Source: an uncultured cyanobacterium (GTDB lineage Bacteria; Cyanobacteriota; Cyanobacteriia; Phormidesmidales; Phormidesmidaceae). Taken from it: a DNA stretch of 64,000 nt. Below are positions 27,701-39,700 of the stretch, piece after piece. A program made the position numbers. Numbering within the stretch: the stretch's first letter is position 1; each line of letters opens with the position of its first letter. Location: the NCBI GenBank assembly GCA_963793265.1, contig CAWBZI010000001.1, forward strand, positions 896,001 to 960,000. The letters run 5' to 3'.

Positions 27701-30700
27701 CATGACGCGCCTGTGCCAGAGGGTTGCAAAATTGAAAGTGCGATTGGGGCTGGCCCGCAGCTATTGCCCGCCGATACGAGTGAAGCTGAGGCATTTACGG
27801 CCTATGAAAATGATGAGCTGGTGCGAGATGCAATCGGCAGCGTGCATCCGAATGCTAGAAGCGCATTAGCCCTTTATCCAGACGGTGGGCTTTCGCTGAT
27901 CATGGTAGCCCAGCGCCTCGATGCTCCTGGCCTAACGCTAGCCGAGCTTACAGAATTTGCCTCTACTCTAGGTGCGAGCCAGCTTCTTAACTTGGACGGT
28001 GGCAGCTCGTCCTCTTTGTATTACAACGGACAAACGCATCTAGCCCGATTAGATGCTGAAGGCAATCCCATTCAACGCTCGGTAAAGTCCGTCATCGTAA
28101 TCGAATAGGTGATCAATATAGCGATCGGCTAACTAAGGGTGTACCCAGTGTTCCATCTGAGATACAAACGGCCCAGCGCCGACTAATGCACCGACATAAT
28201 TTTCTGGCATAGGCACCACGTCTAAATACCATCCTTCTGGGCAGTCAATTGGGACGCTCGCCAACCGAGGCGGACTTAGCTGCACCTCAACCGTCTGCAT
28301 CGACTGCGTTAGGCCCAATCCAATCGCCTTTAAGTAAGCCTCTTTGCAAGTCCATCGCTGCAAAAAAGCCTGAAGCTGCTCGCTAGATGGCATCGATTTC
28401 ACCTGCGCTAGCTCACCCGAAGACAGGCAGCGTTCCATCATGCCGTCTAGCCGCTGAATCGTTTTTAGCCGTTCAATATCGATGCCCACTTGCCTGTGAT
28501 GTCCTAAAACGCACAGGGCGATTTCGCCTGAGTGAGAGAGGTTGAAATAAACGCCATCGATGCTGGGTTTGCCGTATTTGCCGTATGAAAAGGTGATTGA
28601 TTGGGGCGATCGCACCAAAGCCTGCCCTAGCAAATGCCGCAACGTCCCTCTAGCAACCACATACCGCCTTTTATCATCAGCAAACTTGAAACGGTTAGCC
28701 CTGGACTTTTCGTCTGATGAAAGACACGTAAAGTAGGCACTAACGGTATTTTCGGACACCTGTAGCGGAATCTGCCATACCTGAACCACCTCGCTCATCT
28801 ACCGCTCCGACCCGTCCGTCATGGGTAGGTAAATTTTATTCATAAAGTAAACGCAAAATGTTGTTGTTTGTGTAAAGAGAGCAGACGGAGGTGATTATAC
28901 CTAGAGCAGTGTGCCAGTATTCTTCCTGAGAAGGTCGGCAAATTAAGTCACTAAATACGCTTAATTTGGTCAATTCTTCGGAAGCCAGTCGTCAAGTATC
29001 TGAAACTGACTCCAAGCTTAGCCTCAAAATATATCTAAAAATGCTCCGAAGCTAAGAACGAGCGCTAACCTCTCCGTAAATCGCCCTATTTACGACGGTT
29101 TAACCCAAACGCCCGTAGCTTCACTGATACATAATTGCTACTTTTTCGGCATCAGCAATGGTTTATTCTCCACCTAAACATAGTCAAATAACGACACCTA
29201 AAAGTGTCGATACACATACGAACGAAACGCAGGGCACCCAGTTTTCTACGCTGGTAGAGCTACTTCAATATCGAGCAAAAACGCAGCCAAATGATTTGGC
29301 CTATCAGTTTTTGGTTGACGGTAAGAAAGCAGGTGCGGCTTACACCTATGCAGAATTAGATGAGCAGGCACGGGCGATCGCAGCCCTCCTCCAGCAGCAA
29401 AACGCCAAAGGCGATCGCGCCCTCCTCCTCTACCCACAGGGCATAGAAGTCGTCGCGGCCTTTTGCGGCTGTCTCTATGCAGGCGTCATCGCCATCCCCG
29501 TGCCGCCCCCCGATGCAGGCCGCATGAAGCGCACCCTTCCCCGCCTGCGCGAAATCATCAAAGATGCTAAAGCCACCATCGTTCTTAGCAACGACCGCAT
29601 CATTGAGCTGATTAAAGGCTCTGACGTTGAACTTCCTGAAGGGGATAACAAACTCGACAATATGCACTGGATCGACACCGAAGCAGTCGATCTGTCGCTA
29701 GCGCAGGAGTGGAAAGATCCTGAAGTCAATAAAGACGTATTAGCCTATCTGCAATACACATCAGGCTCTACCTCAACGCCCAAAGGCGTGATGCTCAGCC
29801 ACTACAACCTGCTGCACCACTCCGACTACCTGAAACGTGGCTGCGGCTACAAGTCTGATGGCCCCACCGTCACCTGGATGCCTTACTTCCACGATTACGG
29901 CCTCGTCGAAGGACTTATGCAGCCGCTTTACAACGGCGCGCCCTGCTACATCATGGCTCCGCTGGCCTTTGTAAAAAGACCTTTACGCTGGCTGCAAGCA
30001 ATTCAAAAGTACGGTGCAACCCATAGCCAGGCTCCCAACTTTGCCTATGAGCTGTGCATAAAGCGAATCAAACCCGCTAAGCGTGAAGGGCTAAACCTCA
30101 GCGGTTGGCTCAGCGCCGGAAATGCCGCCGAGCCGATCAACCCTCGGGTCATGCGCGAATTTCATGAGGCTTTTGCTGACTACGGGTTTAAGTGGGAGAG
30201 CTTTTCGCCCGCCTACGGATTAGCGGAAGCAACGCTGCTGGTTTCTTCTACGCCTGTCGGAGAAGCGCCCGTCATTCTGTCTTTAGAAGCAAGCGAACTT
30301 GAGAAAGGTCGAATTGCGTTAGCCGGGCCTGAGTCTAGCTACATTCGCGAAGCTGTGAGCTGTGGCGCTTTGGTCTGTGAAACTGAGGTTGCCATTGTCA
30401 ATCCTGATGCGCTGACGCGATGCGCTGACGATGAGGTCGGTGAGATTTGGGTGAATGACCCTGGTGTAGCGCATGGTTACTGGCAGCGGCCTACAGCAAC
30501 TAGAGAAACGTTTGAGGCTCAGATTGCTGATGAAGGCGCGACTCGCTACCTGCGTACGGGCGACCTGGGCTTTATTAAAGACGGCAACTTGTATATTACA
30601 GGCCGCATTAAAGACTTAATTATTATTCGCGGCACAAATCACTATCCCCAAGATATTGAGTGGACGGTGCAGCAGGCTGATGCAGCAATGCGGCCTGACT

Positions 30701-36700: not shown

Positions 36701-39700
36701 GCTGCTCTTACCAAAGGCAAACAAACCAAACCCTTCAACTACCTGCATCTAGGCGACATGCTCACCCTCGGCATCAACGACGCGGGCCTGTGGAGTTTTG
36801 GCATCGCCCTCAGCGGCCCTATCGCTGCCCTCTCTCGTCGGGGCGTCTACATTTTCCGAATGCCCACTCGCCGCCACCAAGTTAAAGTTGCGCGACGCGC
36901 GTTGGGCGAACTATGCAGAGCTATTTTCTTACCCTGGAAAAGGCGGCGCGAGCCTAGCTATGAAAGCTAATCGCCTCATATATTTCTAAATTCTTAAATC
37001 AGCAGCTATGACTTCTCTTCAGTCAAAAAAACAGAGCAAATGGAGCGCCTTTCATCGGTATCTAGAGCACTATAGCTTGGATGTGCGATCGCTAGCCCTC
37101 CTCAGAATTGGCCTGGCCCTCACTATCCTTGCCGACCTCTTCACCCGCGCAGGCGATCTCGTCGCCCACTACACAGACGCAGGCGTCCTACCCACAGCCG
37201 TACTCAATGACGGCATTTTACAGCCCGGCTACTGGTCAATCCATGCGCTCAGCGGTCAGCCGGTGGTGCAAGGCATTCTTTTTTTCGTGGCAGCGATTAG
37301 TGCGATCGCCATGCTATTTGGCTACCACAGCCGCATCGCCACCATCGCCTCCTGGGTTTTGCTGATCTCAATGCAAAACCGCAATCCGCTGCTACTATTT
37401 GCAGCCGATGACGTACTGCGAGCGGTCATGTTCTGGGCCATGTTTTTGCCCTTAGGCGCAGCCTACTCGGTTGATCGCGCCATGAACACCGCCATCCGCC
37501 CCGTCCCGCTGCGAATTCTATCAGGTGCCACGCTCGCCCTCATGGCTCAGCAGTGCTTCATCTACATTTTCTCCGCCATTTTCAAAACCACCAACGCCGC
37601 CTGGTGGCCCAATGGCACTGCCGTCTACTTTTCGCTCAGCTACGATCAGTACGTCACGCCGCTAGGCCACTTCCTTCTAAATCTAGGGCCGCTGCTCACG
37701 ATATTTACCTTCGTTACGCTAGTGCTCGAATGGATCGGGCCGCTGTTGATTTGGTCGCCCGTTCGCAACGATCTGTGCCGGATGATCGCAGTTGTCCTAT
37801 TCATTAGTCTTCACGCAGGCTTTGGCCTCACGCTGAACTTAGGCATCTTTCCGTTTCTGAGCATCATTACCTGGCTGGCGTTTATTCCCACCTCTACATG
37901 GGAGGCTTTGAGCAAGCGCGTTTATGGGCCTAACAAAGAAGGAAAAGGACGCGGCCCACAGCGCACGGGATTAAGAATCTTCTACGATGCCGACTGCGGA
38001 TTTTGCAAAAAGGTTGTGCATCTCATTCGGATGCTGTTAGTGCTGCCACATACGCCTTTAGCCACTGCGCAAAGCATTCCAGAAATCAACGAGGCTATGG
38101 AGAAGCAAAACTCTTGGGTGATTGTCGATTGGCAAGGGCGGCATCATTACAAGTTTGAGGGTATTGCCTATGTGGTTAGCCTGTCGCCAGTTTTTTGGTT
38201 TCTTGCACCTGTGCTGCGATCGCCCCCACTCATGGCCATCGGCACCCCTTTCTACGAATGGATCGCCACCCATCGCAAAATCGCAGGCCGCTTCACCCGC
38301 CCCTTCAAATTCAAGCCACTCACCGTCAAAAATCCTGGTTGGTTAAGCGCTATTGCCCTACTCCTCCTCGCGCTCACCTTTTCCTGGAACCTACGCAGCG
38401 TCGTCATGCACCGAGCCTTCGTCGAAAGCTCTCAGCCAACAGCAGCGCTAGTGCGCAGGGTCGTTAATAGCCGCACAGCTCAGCGGTTCGACTGGATCGG
38501 CAACGCTACCAGACTAGATCAATCCTGGAGCATCTTTGCACCAGGGCCACCGACTGATGATGGTTGGCACGTGGTTACCGGAGAGCCGCTGACGGCTTTG
38601 GCGACGGCTTCAGCGACTGAAGAAGCCACCGAAATTGATGTGCTTAGGCCGCAAGAGAGCATTAGTTTTGAGAAGCCGACTTTAGGCGATCGCGCCAAAT
38701 TCTACAAAAACATGCAGTGGCGCACCTTCTACATCAACCTCAACCGTAATATCGGCAAAAAGGTCTTCCCCAACTACGGCGAGTATCTATGCCAGCAAAG
38801 CGCCAGCAAAGGACATCCTTTAGAAAATCTGCGCGTCTACTTCATGGACGAAAGAACTGTAGATCCTGGCCTTACTCAGCCTGTAGAACAAACCTTAATC
38901 TGGGAGCAATCTTGCCAAAACCTTTAGCAAAAACTTAACGATAAACCGCCGCCAAACATCAGCATATTTTGCAAGCCCCGCGTAAGATAGAGTACTTATC
39001 CAACTGTTTTGGTCTGACCTTTAGTTGGCAGCTTACGTCAAGCAATGACAAACTTCTCGCAGCGCTTTGTGCTGTTCAACAAACTTCGGCAGTGGTTCAC
39101 CAAAACGCCCGAACGAGCACTCGATCAAGCCTACGAAGCAGCCCTTAAAATTCGCCAGCTCGAAGACAGGCACTTTAACGGCAATCCCGTCTCCGAAAGC
39201 GCGAGCGGCTATAGTCGCAGCTCTTATCAACTGCTGCAAAAAGACCTTAAAAAATATCTCAGCATTATCAAAAGACGGATGGCCGAGTTTAGAGCCAGCA
39301 GCTCCGTCTATTCGGTTTCTAGCGTTAGTGTTAGCGATGGGCTTAGTAGCGATCGCCTCTCCCCCACCGCAGGCTCTATCAACGCCCCGCTTCCCGAAGA
39401 TGTCCCACTCAACGAAATCAACGGCCCGGCCATATTCTTTACTAAGCTCCAACTTATTGATGCCGTTTTAGAGCGCTACCAAAAGCCCTCCGTCTATGCC
39501 CTTAGTGAAATCCAACCGCCGCTCCCACCTGCTGGTTTAACTAACCCTTCCAACGGTAAGGCGAATGGCAAGACGAACAAAGTTGCCACTAACGACTTTT
39601 CTCAAGACAACGCCAACGAAGCACTCTCTAGCAAAAGCAATGTCCTCCCGCGTTCAATCCTGCGCACCGTAGATCGCATTAAGCAAGACCTTGATCCTGA

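What a model noticed while it worked through the whole genome (the two positions that open the first line are those of the whole stretch)
29158..38927. Conserved seven-gene FAAL-ACAD-ACP-MBOAT-SGNH-reductase-HTTM/DCC1 operon for ACP-dependent acylation of a cell-surface g [...]
g00875-g00881 form a Dlt-like export line for a fatty acyl group: a fatty acyl-AMP ligase loads a dedicated ACP, an acyl-CoA-dehydrogenase homologue modifies it, a DltB-like MBOAT moves it across the membrane and a membrane-anchored DltD-like SGNH protein transfers it outside, with an NDH-2-like flavoprotein and an HTTM-DCC1 membrane protein. The operon is kept in this order across six cyanobacterial families.
Evidence so far: The dehydrogenase is found in 13 of 201 class genomes; in all 10 loci fetched the order FAAL-ACAD-ACP-MBOAT-g00879-(reductase)-HTTM/DCC1 holds, the reductase missing in 1, and glycosyltransferase or membrane GT-C genes often flank it. 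The only PDB matches of the MBOAT are DltB (E 5e-29; call 198). Unannotated g00879 has invariant G-S59-G and D283-T-H-Y-H motifs; its model (pLDDT 87) matches SGNH esterases and DltD. A phosphopantetheinyl transferase (g00874) is divergent upstream.
(Added by a program. Inside this text positions count along the whole contig: contig position 896,001 is position 1 of the stretch shown here. "Call 12" and the like, gene names such as g00115 and contig names such as C1 are that model's own, and its searches are not shown. The text may have been shortened before it was handed on; [...] marks where a part breaks off. The agent that wrote the report below was given it as the finding of a first reader that could run no searches.)

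Follow-up and report, generated by a model that had tools for sequence, protein, structure and literature searches.

The report
Carrier-fed cyanobacterial surface acylation operon
A conserved cyanobacterial gene cluster joins an acid-activating enzyme and its carrier protein to the membrane enzyme pair that bacteria use to decorate cell-surface sugars, and adds a look-alike of the human vitamin K-dependent carboxylase, so it probably builds an undescribed acylated surface polymer.

Summary
The seven genes are real, but the fixed core is FAAL-ACAD-ACP-MBOAT; the full order holds in 33 of 61 long loci. All 22 of 401 genomes with the dehydrogenase carry the SGNH orthologue. Full-length HTTM occurs in 20 of 381 genomes, all with the dehydrogenase. 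The NDH-2 and the PPTase outlive the module.

The MBOAT ends in the FxYxxF acyl-shuttle motif, so it works like PatA/AlgI but probably takes its acyl group from an ACP, as DltB does. Two metagenome contigs pair related starter genes with a distant MBOAT and a DltX-like peptide.

The FAAL pocket motifs are remodelled, so a long-chain fatty acid is not assured.

Acceptor: probably a surface glycan (inferred). ACP-MBOAT binding could not be modelled. The scan noted this operon in two other genomes. New variant of a known kind; interest 0.66.

The parts
28133..28798 (-). Sfp/HetI-type phosphopantetheinyl transferase, divergent; probably the housekeeping enzyme that primes the ACP, not a dedicated member
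   Evidence: PF01648; NF042922 below cut-off; only hit of its type in G000; retained in loci that lost the module
29158..31050 (+). Fatty acyl-AMP ligase (FAAL) of the HDYG subtype, with remodelled acid-pocket motifs (H221, Y247, E251, H289, Q291, A323)
   Evidence: closest structures are the olefin-synthase and Legionella FAALs; residues conserved in 82-87 of 87 orthologues and absent from four G000 paralogues
31064..32947 (+). Acyl-ACP dehydrogenase homologue (about 600-aa subfamily), Asp372 (FDGS) in place of the usual Glu
   Evidence: 35-39% relatives sit in FAAL-ACAD-ACP-NRPS/PKS clusters
32910..33218 (+). Stand-alone acyl carrier protein (ATG start 32910; invariant GLDS58)
   Evidence: PF00550; alignment A5; follows the ACAD in 77 of 77 loci
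33302..34774 (+). MBOAT acyltransferase with H297/H335 (DltB H289/H336) and fused C-terminal acyl shuttle F485-I-Y487-F-E-F490; donor-side loop P-L-M313-G
   Evidence: motif function from PMC12148441; DltC contact residues from PMC11035591
34788..35726 (+). Membrane-anchored SGNH protein (ATG start 34788; S59, D283, H287), probable extracytoplasmic acyltransferase
   Evidence: model pLDDT 93.9 with N-terminal helix 4-27; fold searches; conservation
35723..36970 (+). NDH-2-type flavoprotein; extra paralogue of a near-universal cyanobacterial gene; loosely attached member
   Evidence: PDB hits to NDH-2 and FSP1; 40% paralogue in G000 and a match at E<=1e-30 in 399 of 401 genomes; retained after module loss
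37008..38927 (+). HTTM-DCC1 membrane protein with the vitamin K-dependent carboxylase (GGCX) fold; K193, W199, E241, H269, F281; inserted thioredoxin-like C330-x-x-C333 domain
   Evidence: model pLDDT 95; GGCX Z 23.6, rmsd 6.2, 387 aligned, next unrelated Z 7.4; conservation; profile alignment with carboxylase-like bacterial proteins; co-occurrence
40525..43164 (+). Second, canonical SGNH-MBOAT pair after pcxA (PLGGNR loop, ends FVYFQF); not part of the conserved module
   Evidence: present in some same-genus genomes that lost the module

Best explanation
A carrier-protein-fed MBOAT-SGNH acylation line for a cell-surface glycan. (1) The FAAL adenylates a carboxylic acid and loads it on the phosphopantetheinylated ACP (family knowledge; acid unknown, possibly short or polar). 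(2) The dehydrogenase oxidises the ACP-bound acyl group, most likely to an enoyl (inferred). (3) The ACP docks on the cytoplasmic face of the MBOAT, and His335 moves the acyl group to Tyr487 of the MBOAT's own C-terminal hexapeptide (motifs shown; chemistry inferred from PatA and DltB/DltX). (4) Ser59 of the SGNH protein takes it and esterifies a periplasmic or surface glycan, probably one built or decorated by polyprenyl-phosphate/GT-C glycosyltransferases (inferred from neighbours). (5) The GGCX-fold HTTM-DCC1 protein acts in the same pathway, probably as a quinone-dependent enzyme on the outer face (membership shown by co-loss; role inferred). The NDH-2 may supply reduced quinone but also has a use of its own.
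For: ACP follows ACAD in 77 of 77 loci, FAAL precedes it in 74 of 76, MBOAT follows in 74 of 75. All 22 of 401 genomes with the ACAD carry the SGNH orthologue. Where the SGNH is missing from the locus, a strong match lies elsewhere in 9 of 10 genomes (one has a stop at the end of the match). FxYxxF is the exact C-terminus in 92 of 92 MBOATs, two of them ACP-less relatives. His297 and His335 align with DltB His289 and His336. Operon MBOATs have P-L-M-G where the four other G000 MBOATs and the ACP-less sister clade (L049, L050) have P-L-G-G; M313 aligns with DltB V305, a DltC contact. A distant MBOAT without a fused shuttle, a 37-aa ORF ending FLYAQF or VLYAQF and an SGNH-motif gene sit divergent from a FAAL-ACAD(-ACP) block in L208 and L274, whose ACAD is sister to the operon ACADs. 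Glycan context: GT2, GT-C or flippase genes in 14 of 61 loci, a sulfotransferase in the SGNH slot in L123 and L125, a second MBOAT in 13 of 61.
Against: No binding or activity is shown. No NRPS, PKS or glycan synthase is a fixed neighbour, and 47 of 61 loci lack the GT-C/GT2/flippase genes tested. Small SGNH esterases outrank the transferases DltD, PatB and OatA in the fold search, and the Asp-His spacing is D-x-x-x-H, not D-x-x-H. The DltC-binding helix of DltB is 8 residues longer than the matching stretch here. The same FAAL subtype and ACAD subfamily elsewhere start lipopeptide or polyketide lines. In L074 and its genome the trio and the MBOAT block are separated. The L208/L274 SGNH call rests on motifs only: no profile match to g00879 (probability 2%), no NCBIfam or PDB hit, and for L274 no Pfam hit. 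The genomes are kin, so the counts are not independent.
Confidence: 0.68

Rival explanations
1. Same ACP-to-MBOAT-to-SGNH line, but the acceptor is a lipid (lipid A, a glycolipid, a polyprenyl-linked sugar), a surface protein or a small secreted product rather than a polysaccharide.
For: The flanking GT2 + flippase + GT-C + DegT-aminotransferase sets resemble lipid-A or protein decoration modules. Relatives of the trio make lipopeptides, e.g. the A. baumannii cluster beside abaI/abaR. A PEP-CTERM gene lies 5.5 kb upstream in this window.
Against: The MBOAT-SGNH pairs named in PMC12148441 all act on envelope polymers. The genes inserted into the operon in other strains are sulfotransferases, FkbM methyltransferases and further MBOAT pairs. 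No exporter or NRPS is a fixed neighbour.
Confidence: 0.17
2. Two pathways share an operon: the MBOAT-SGNH pair is an ordinary acetyl-CoA-dependent O-acetyltransferase, and FAAL-ACAD-ACP feeds another product (for instance through the HTTM protein).
For: The MBOAT's sister clade (L049, L050) has no carrier protein and sits in a capsule-type cluster. PMC12148441 states that non-Dlt pairs use acyl-CoA. The blocks are separable on the chromosome.
Against: The ACAD never occurs without the SGNH orthologue in the 401 genomes searched. No other consumer of the acyl-ACP is a fixed neighbour. The donor-side loop changed specifically in the ACP-linked clade. A second MBOAT lineage is paired with related starter genes.
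Confidence: 0.08
3. The SGNH protein is an editing esterase (like Ape1); the MBOAT, or the HTTM protein, transfers the acyl group to the acceptor directly.
For: Hydrolases top the fold search. The SGNH gene leaves the operon in 15 of 61 loci, more often than the MBOAT. The block V spacing is non-canonical.
Against: The FxYxxF shuttle, whose shown role is to hand the acyl group to an SGNH partner, is kept in 92 of 92. No other SGNH is a fixed neighbour, and the displaced gene is retained in 9 of 10 genomes.
Confidence: 0.07

Closest known systems
PatA/PatB, AlgI/AlgJ/AlgX, WssH/WssI MBOAT-SGNH O-acetyltransferases (PMC12148441; part 1 of 9 and passages read)
   Same: MBOAT with catalytic His and fused C-terminal FxYxxF shuttle, next to a membrane-anchored SGNH protein
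   Different: Those use acyl-CoA and, by that paper, lack a carrier protein. Here a FAAL, a dehydrogenase and an ACP are fixed neighbours, the P-L-G-G loop is P-L-M-G, and a GGCX-fold protein is co-inherited.
Dlt pathway (DltA, DltC, DltB, DltX, DltD; PMC12148441 and PMC11035591 passages)
   Same: Adenylating enzyme to carrier protein to MBOAT to Tyr shuttle to SGNH
   Different: A FAAL, not a D-alanine ligase; an oxidation step on the carrier; shuttle fused to the MBOAT, not a microprotein; a diderm host; g00879 is not shown to be a DltD. The L208/L274 version does have a DltX-like peptide.
FAAL-ACAD-ACP starter units of lipopeptide clusters, e.g. A. baumannii A1S_0112-0119 / acinetin 505 (PMC5376624 passages; L180 assigned to it by gene order beside abaI/abaR)
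   Same: Same gene trio and order; ACAD 37% identical with the same FDGS motif; ACP 48%
   Different: There the acyl-ACP feeds an NRPS and the FAAL has canonical pocket motifs; here it is followed by an MBOAT and the FAAL is of the HDYG subtype.
[quoted passage not shown] MloH known only as cited in the 2026 preprint)
   Same: Fold over GGCX residues 32-491 (Z 23.6); conserved Lys, Trp and Phe at the probable quinol site; HTTM-DCC1 fusion as in the Melghirimyces protein of the 2026 preprint
   Different: No Asn-His glutamate-pocket pair, nothing aligned beyond GGCX 491, an inserted CxxC domain, and linkage to an envelope acylation module rather than to peptide substrates.
NDH-2 family; NdbB/NDC1 quinone reductase (PMC12223511 passages) and FSP1
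   Same: NDH-2 family by PDB hits; nearest relative is a near-universal cyanobacterial gene at about 40% identity
   Different: An additional paralogue. That the universal gene is NdbB/NDC1 is my recall and was not tested.

Membership tests
MBOAT-SGNH pair of PatA/AlgI type | MBOAT with catalytic His | tested here: met
   H335 and H297 invariant in 36 of 36, aligned with DltB H336 and H289
MBOAT-SGNH pair of PatA/AlgI type | Fused C-terminal FxYxxF shuttle | tested here: met
   92 of 92 full-length MBOATs
MBOAT-SGNH pair of PatA/AlgI type | Partner SGNH protein with Ser and His | tested here: met
   SGNH fold; S59, D283, H287 in 51 of 51; spacing D-x-x-x-H is non-canonical
MBOAT-SGNH pair of PatA/AlgI type | No carrier protein in the pathway (acyl-CoA donor) | tested here: not met
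   By gene context: ACP after the ACAD in 77 of 77 loci, MBOAT downstream in 74 of 75; the donor itself is not testable here
Dlt pathway | D-alanine-activating DltA | tested here: not met
   Adenylating enzyme is a FAAL by NCBIfam ranking and PDB hits
Dlt pathway | Dedicated carrier protein | tested here: met
   PF00550, invariant Ser58
Dlt pathway | Separate DltX microprotein | tested here: not met
   Shuttle is fused to the MBOAT; a DltX-like ORF was seen only in L208 and L274
Dlt pathway | DltD-family SGNH protein | tested here: inconclusive
   No Pfam, NCBIfam or PDB profile hit; DltD Z 10.9, rmsd 4.7, 228 aligned, against Z 13.5 for small esterases
Dlt pathway | Carrier protein binds the MBOAT | not tested
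FAAL | ANL ligase closest to FAALs, including the insertion region, next to an ACP | tested here: met
   Aligns through the insertion region with olefin-synthase, Legionella and FadD32 FAALs; NCBIfam FAAL models rank top but stay below their cut-offs
FAAL | Canonical long-chain pocket motifs (N, HDMG, GG/GA-PN, GAEP) | tested here: not met
   H221, Y247, H289, Q291, A323 in 87 of 87, E251 in 82 of 87; that these line the pocket is recalled, not measured on a model
Acyl-CoA dehydrogenase | Catalytic Glu of the YEG motif | tested here: not met
   Asp372 in 15 of 15, aligned with that Glu; Thr at the alternative (IVD/LCAD) position, by recalled numbering
GGCX / vitamin K-dependent carboxylase | Fold | tested here: met
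   Z 23.6, rmsd 6.2, 387 aligned; next unrelated Z 7.4; Foldseek E 4.5e-6
GGCX / vitamin K-dependent carboxylase | Catalytic Lys218 | tested here: inconclusive
   K193 in 131 of 132 aligns with the conserved Lys of carboxylase-like bacterial proteins (probability 77%, E 2e-5); no residue-level alignment to GGCX itself was obtained, and the link to Lys218 is partly recalled
GGCX / vitamin K-dependent carboxylase | Glutamate pocket Asn159-His160 and propeptide-binding domain | tested here: not met
   A/G-A/G-D134 stands where the carboxylase-like proteins have Asn-His; structural alignment ends at GGCX 491
GGCX / vitamin K-dependent carboxylase | Quinol/O2-dependent activity | not testable with these tools
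   Needs an assay
NdbB/NDC1 | Orthology to Synechocystis slr1743 | tested here: inconclusive
   No NCBIfam model over cut-off; no reference sequence was fetched; assignment recalled

The most novel reading that the evidence does not exclude
The operon first esterifies a surface glycan with an unsaturated acyl group delivered by an ACP. A GGCX-fold enzyme then uses reduced phylloquinone and O2 to generate a strong base on the outer face of the membrane and modifies that acylated glycan (carboxylation, epimerisation, or addition across the enoyl bond to cross-link the sheath), while its fused CxxC domain and the NDH-2 recycle the quinone. This would be a self-contained bacterial vitamin K cycle acting on an envelope polymer.
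Probability: 0.2. Interest if true: 0.9.

Novelty: new variant of a known kind. Interest (0 to 1): 0.66.

Why it matters
MBOAT-SGNH systems are described as either acyl-CoA-fed with a fused shuttle (PatA, AlgI) or carrier-fed with a microprotein shuttle (Dlt). This module combines a fused shuttle with a carrier protein and a natural-product-type starter unit, and a second lineage seems to have reached the same coupling with a DltX-like peptide. It predicts an undescribed acylated surface polymer in about 5% of the cyanobacterial genomes sampled, including cultured Anabaena and Leptolyngbya strains (named), which bears on sheath hydrophobicity, mats and biofilms. It also ties a widespread, uncharacterised bacterial GGCX-fold family (2610 representatives at E<=1e-30) to a defined pathway by co-loss, which makes the question of what bacterial vitamin K carboxylase look-alikes do directly testable.

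Tried and rejected
Complex prediction (ACP with MBOAT) was not available, so binding is untested. The cluster-member look-up could not be made, so no accession or locus tags were obtained for the Anabaena orthologues. No RNA holder was listed for the operon; co-transcription is untested. The promoter/terminator scan gave no excess over shuffles (5 against 10.3; 20 against 16.6). No relative of g00879 was found in viral contigs. Profile searches of the PDB by sequence found nothing for g00879 or the HTTM protein. The L208 SGNH-like protein did not match g00879 by profile.

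A search with recalled Anabaena locus tags found one table row (alr4057, 'similar to peptide synthetase', up 2.49-fold on sigJ over-expression; PMC2779892). That this is the FAAL orthologue is unverified recall, so I do not use it.

Rejected: a dedicated PPTase; NDH-2 as an obligate member; N322 as a special FAAL residue (shared with Legionella FAAL and FadD32); pcxA and the second SGNH-MBOAT pair as members (only in close relatives, and kept without the module).

The careful MBOAT tree did not finish: the quick tree and FastTree trees are used, and the long branch of the L208/L274 MBOATs makes their exact place unsure.

Literature: searches found no paper describing this operon or an ACP-fed MBOAT with fused shuttle. 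The library holds only open papers. The 2023 paper that defined the shuttle (reference 25 of PMC12148441) was not listed and not read; it or its supplements may already list such clusters. No supplements were read.

Full report
OBSERVATION. The window holds seven co-oriented genes from 29158 to 38927 with gaps of -38 to +83 nt: FAAL, acyl-CoA dehydrogenase homologue (ACAD), ACP, MBOAT, an unannotated 312-aa protein, an NDH-2-type flavoprotein and an HTTM-DCC1 protein; a PPTase is divergent. Better starts are ATG 32910 for the ACP and ATG 34788 for the unannotated gene. Its model (pLDDT 93.9) has the SGNH fold behind an N-terminal helix. Small esterases rank first (Z 13.5); DltD scores Z 10.9 over the longest alignment.

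CONSERVATION. Anchoring on the SGNH gene, 17 of 20 fetched loci (20 of the 25 strongest matches) show FAAL-ACAD-ACP-MBOAT-SGNH-(NDH-2)-HTTM, three of them without NDH-2; one has the SGNH alone and two are distant MBOAT-SGNH pairs without a carrier protein. Anchoring on the ACAD gave 258 relatives, of which the best 80 were kept. In these the ACP follows in 77 of 77, the FAAL precedes in 74 of 76 and the MBOAT follows in 74 of 75; loci too short for each test were left out. Of 61 loci with at least 8 kb downstream, 33 have all seven in order. The module is tighter at genome level than on the chromosome. The ACAD is in 22 of 401 class genomes from 7 families, all among the 23 with an SGNH orthologue of at least 48% identity; the extra genome is 73% complete. 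Where the SGNH is missing from the locus it lies elsewhere in 9 of 10 genomes. A full-length HTTM orthologue is in 20 of 381 genomes, the same 20 that have the ACAD in that draw; one match has an internal stop, and 8 further genomes have partial matches only. In five same-genus genomes the FAAL-to-SGNH block is gone or a remnant, the HTTM gene is gone (4) or in pieces (1), and the NDH-2 still matches over nearly its whole length between PPTase and pcxA. That needs losses on both sides of the NDH-2. So HTTM belongs to the module, and NDH-2 and PPTase have uses of their own. The genomes are kin, so these counts are not independent trials.

THE MBOAT. Its only solved relatives are DltB (E 4.7e-29), with His297 and His335 on DltB His289 and His336. 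It ends in F-I-Y487-F-E-F. FxYxxF is the exact C-terminus in 92 of 92 full-length sequences assigned to this MBOAT, which include the two ACP-less relatives. PMC12148441 (part 1 of 9 and passages) shows that this Tyr is acylated in PatA and hands the group to the SGNH partner, and states that pathways other than Dlt lack a carrier protein. Operon MBOATs have P-L-M-G where the four other MBOATs of G000 and the ACP-less sister clade have P-L-G-G (the pattern was read in 84 of 92). Met313 aligns with DltB Val305, a DltC contact in PMC11035591 (passages). Against this, DltB's carrier-binding helix is 8 residues longer, and binding could not be modelled.

A SECOND LINEAGE. Most are not this operon: of those annotated, the subtype starts NRPS or PKS lines, often fused to an ACAD. 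In L208 and L274, however, FAAL-ACAD (with an ACP in L274; L208 ends in the ACAD) is divergent from three genes: one with GNSR and DxxH motifs, a 37-aa hydrophobic ORF ending FLYAQF or VLYAQF, and an MBOAT without a fused shuttle. These MBOATs lie far from the operon clade, whereas the L274 ACAD is in the sister clade of the operon ACADs (support 99, FastTree). This is a Dlt-like layout with a DltX-like peptide around related starter genes. It supports functional coupling of the trio to an MBOAT. The two contigs are close kin and count as one case; their lineage was not determined, and the SGNH call is by motif only (negative).

THE ACYL GROUP. The FAAL is closest to the olefin-synthase FAAL. 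H221, Y247, H289, Q291 and A323 (87 of 87) and E251 (82 of 87) replace residues that are Asn, Met or Leu, Thr, Gly, Gly and mostly Gly in four G000 paralogues, and most differ likewise from the FAALs. That these positions line the acid pocket is family knowledge, not measured here. A standard long-chain fatty acid is therefore not assured; a shorter or polar acid is as likely. The ACAD has Asp372 where solved dehydrogenases have the catalytic Glu. Its 35-39% relatives share this motif in 3 of 4 loci inspected and sit in FAAL-ACAD-ACP-NRPS or PKS clusters. One is the cluster beside abaI/abaR of A. baumannii, which I assign by gene order to A1S_0112-0119, linked to a hydroxy-C15 lipopeptide in PMC5376624 (passages). 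Oxidation of the ACP-bound acyl group is the likely role (inferred).

THE HTTM-DCC1 PROTEIN. [quoted passage not shown] K193 (131 of 132), W199 (128), E241 (123), H269 (108), F281 (131) and C330/C333 (130, 131) are conserved. A profile alignment to four bacterial carboxylase-like proteins (probability 77%, E 2e-5) puts K193 on their conserved Lys, and A-A-D134 on their Asn-His. In GGCX, Lys218 is catalytic, Trp223 and Phe299 line the quinol site, and Asn159-His160 bind glutamate (bioRxiv 10.1101/2025.02.09.637231, passages); the last step of the mapping to GGCX numbers is recalled. So the quinol-activating centre seems kept and the glutamate pocket lost. From the helix order I infer that K193 faces out and the CxxC domain faces in. 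The fold link for HTTM-DCC1 proteins is already in a 2026 preprint, which also cites the carboxylase MloH (passages). Viral epoxidase-desaturase modules (PMC13486548, passages) and linaridin HTTM genes (PMC9927463 and PMC10849128, one passage each) show other uses of the fold. The family is wide (2610 representatives at E<=1e-30). The NDH-2 is an extra paralogue of a gene matched in 399 of 401 genomes. I recall that gene as NdbB/NDC1, a quinone reductase of phylloquinone synthesis (role in PMC12223511, passages), but did not test the identity.

THE ACCEPTOR. Not shown. GT2, GT-C-like or flippase genes accompany 14 of 61 loci, and some displaced pieces keep such company. Sulfotransferases occupy the SGNH slot in L123 and L125, FkbM methyltransferase genes lie next to the SGNH in L085 and L146, and a second MBOAT is in 13 of 61 loci. 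G000 has GT-C homologues elsewhere. A surface glycan is the best guess; a lipid or glycoprotein is not excluded.

VERDICT. It works like Dlt (carrier to MBOAT to Tyr to SGNH) with PatA/AlgI hardware and a lipopeptide-type starter, and it is a member of neither family by all defining features. No description was found in six searches of an open-access library; the 2023 paper that defined the shuttle was not seen and may mention such clusters. Earlier notes of this scan report the same operon in two other genomes; they are not independent evidence, and my reading was recorded before I saw them. Confidence in the main mechanism 0.68; novel case 0.2; interest 0.66; new variant of a known kind.

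Noticed in passing
L208:1913-6789 and L274:470-6962 (also L256, L244, L252, L209): Dlt-like layout in metagenome contigs of GC about 0.57: SGNH-motif gene, 37-aa DltX-like ORF and shuttle-less MBOAT, divergent from an HDYG-type FAAL, ACAD and (L274) ACP. L256, L244, L252 and L209 hold parts of it.
   Followed up: partly
L205:1-4836: FAAL-ACAD-ACP of the same subtype followed by a 386-aa gene with no Pfam hit instead of an MBOAT.
   Followed up: no
L197, L262, L228, L199, L240, L250, L259: The HDYG-type FAAL is a widespread starter module: FAAL-ACAD fusions before condensation-carrier-thioesterase genes, 3100-aa NRPSs, a 2054-aa NRPS beside a PPTase and TonB receptor, and a PKS. Its acid specificity is unknown.
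   Followed up: partly
L173:7595-8866 and L172:10943-12456 (G000, outside the window): A second HTTM gene lies in a glycosyltransferase, deacetylase and flippase cluster. A probable third (no Pfam hit, judged by eye) with a 182-aa partner lies beside a polysaccharide flippase, a GMC oxidoreductase and the universal NDH-2 paralogue. HTTM proteins may act on glycans more generally.
   Followed up: partly
window 40525-43164: Second SGNH-MBOAT pair of canonical type after pcxA; broken in G135 (stops and frameshifts), intact in G159 and G210, which lost the main module.
   Followed up: partly
ACP orthologues, e.g. L084, L096, L109, L115: 42 of 94 ACPs carry a C-terminal extension with a KGWGG(L/F)W-type motif, perhaps a membrane-binding helix; the window's ACP lacks it.
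   Followed up: no
window 37008-38927, residue 63: The window's HTTM has Thr63 where 119 of 132 relatives have Arg.
   Followed up: no
L152-L155: Close bacterial look-alikes of the vitamin K-dependent carboxylase (Asn-His and Lys motifs kept) in four genomes of the same phylum; in L153-L155 they are preceded by a lipoprotein-like gene of about 360 aa.
   Followed up: no
L198:8359-10152 (also L222, L264, L269, L227, L232): Orthologue-level FAALs (60-62%) standing without ACAD or MBOAT next to them, possibly split or decayed modules.
   Followed up: no
window 21807-22460 and 22657-27138: A two-gene pair resembling a HigBA-type toxin-antitoxin module (by eye, not scanned), a PEP-CTERM/DUF4394 gene and three glycosyltransferases lie upstream; the glycosyltransferase linkage is limited to close relatives.
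   Followed up: no
L049, L050: Sister-clade MBOAT-SGNH pair without a carrier protein inside a cluster with ABC transporter, SIS/CBS, cytidylyltransferase and DAHP-synthase-family genes (capsule-type).
   Followed up: partly
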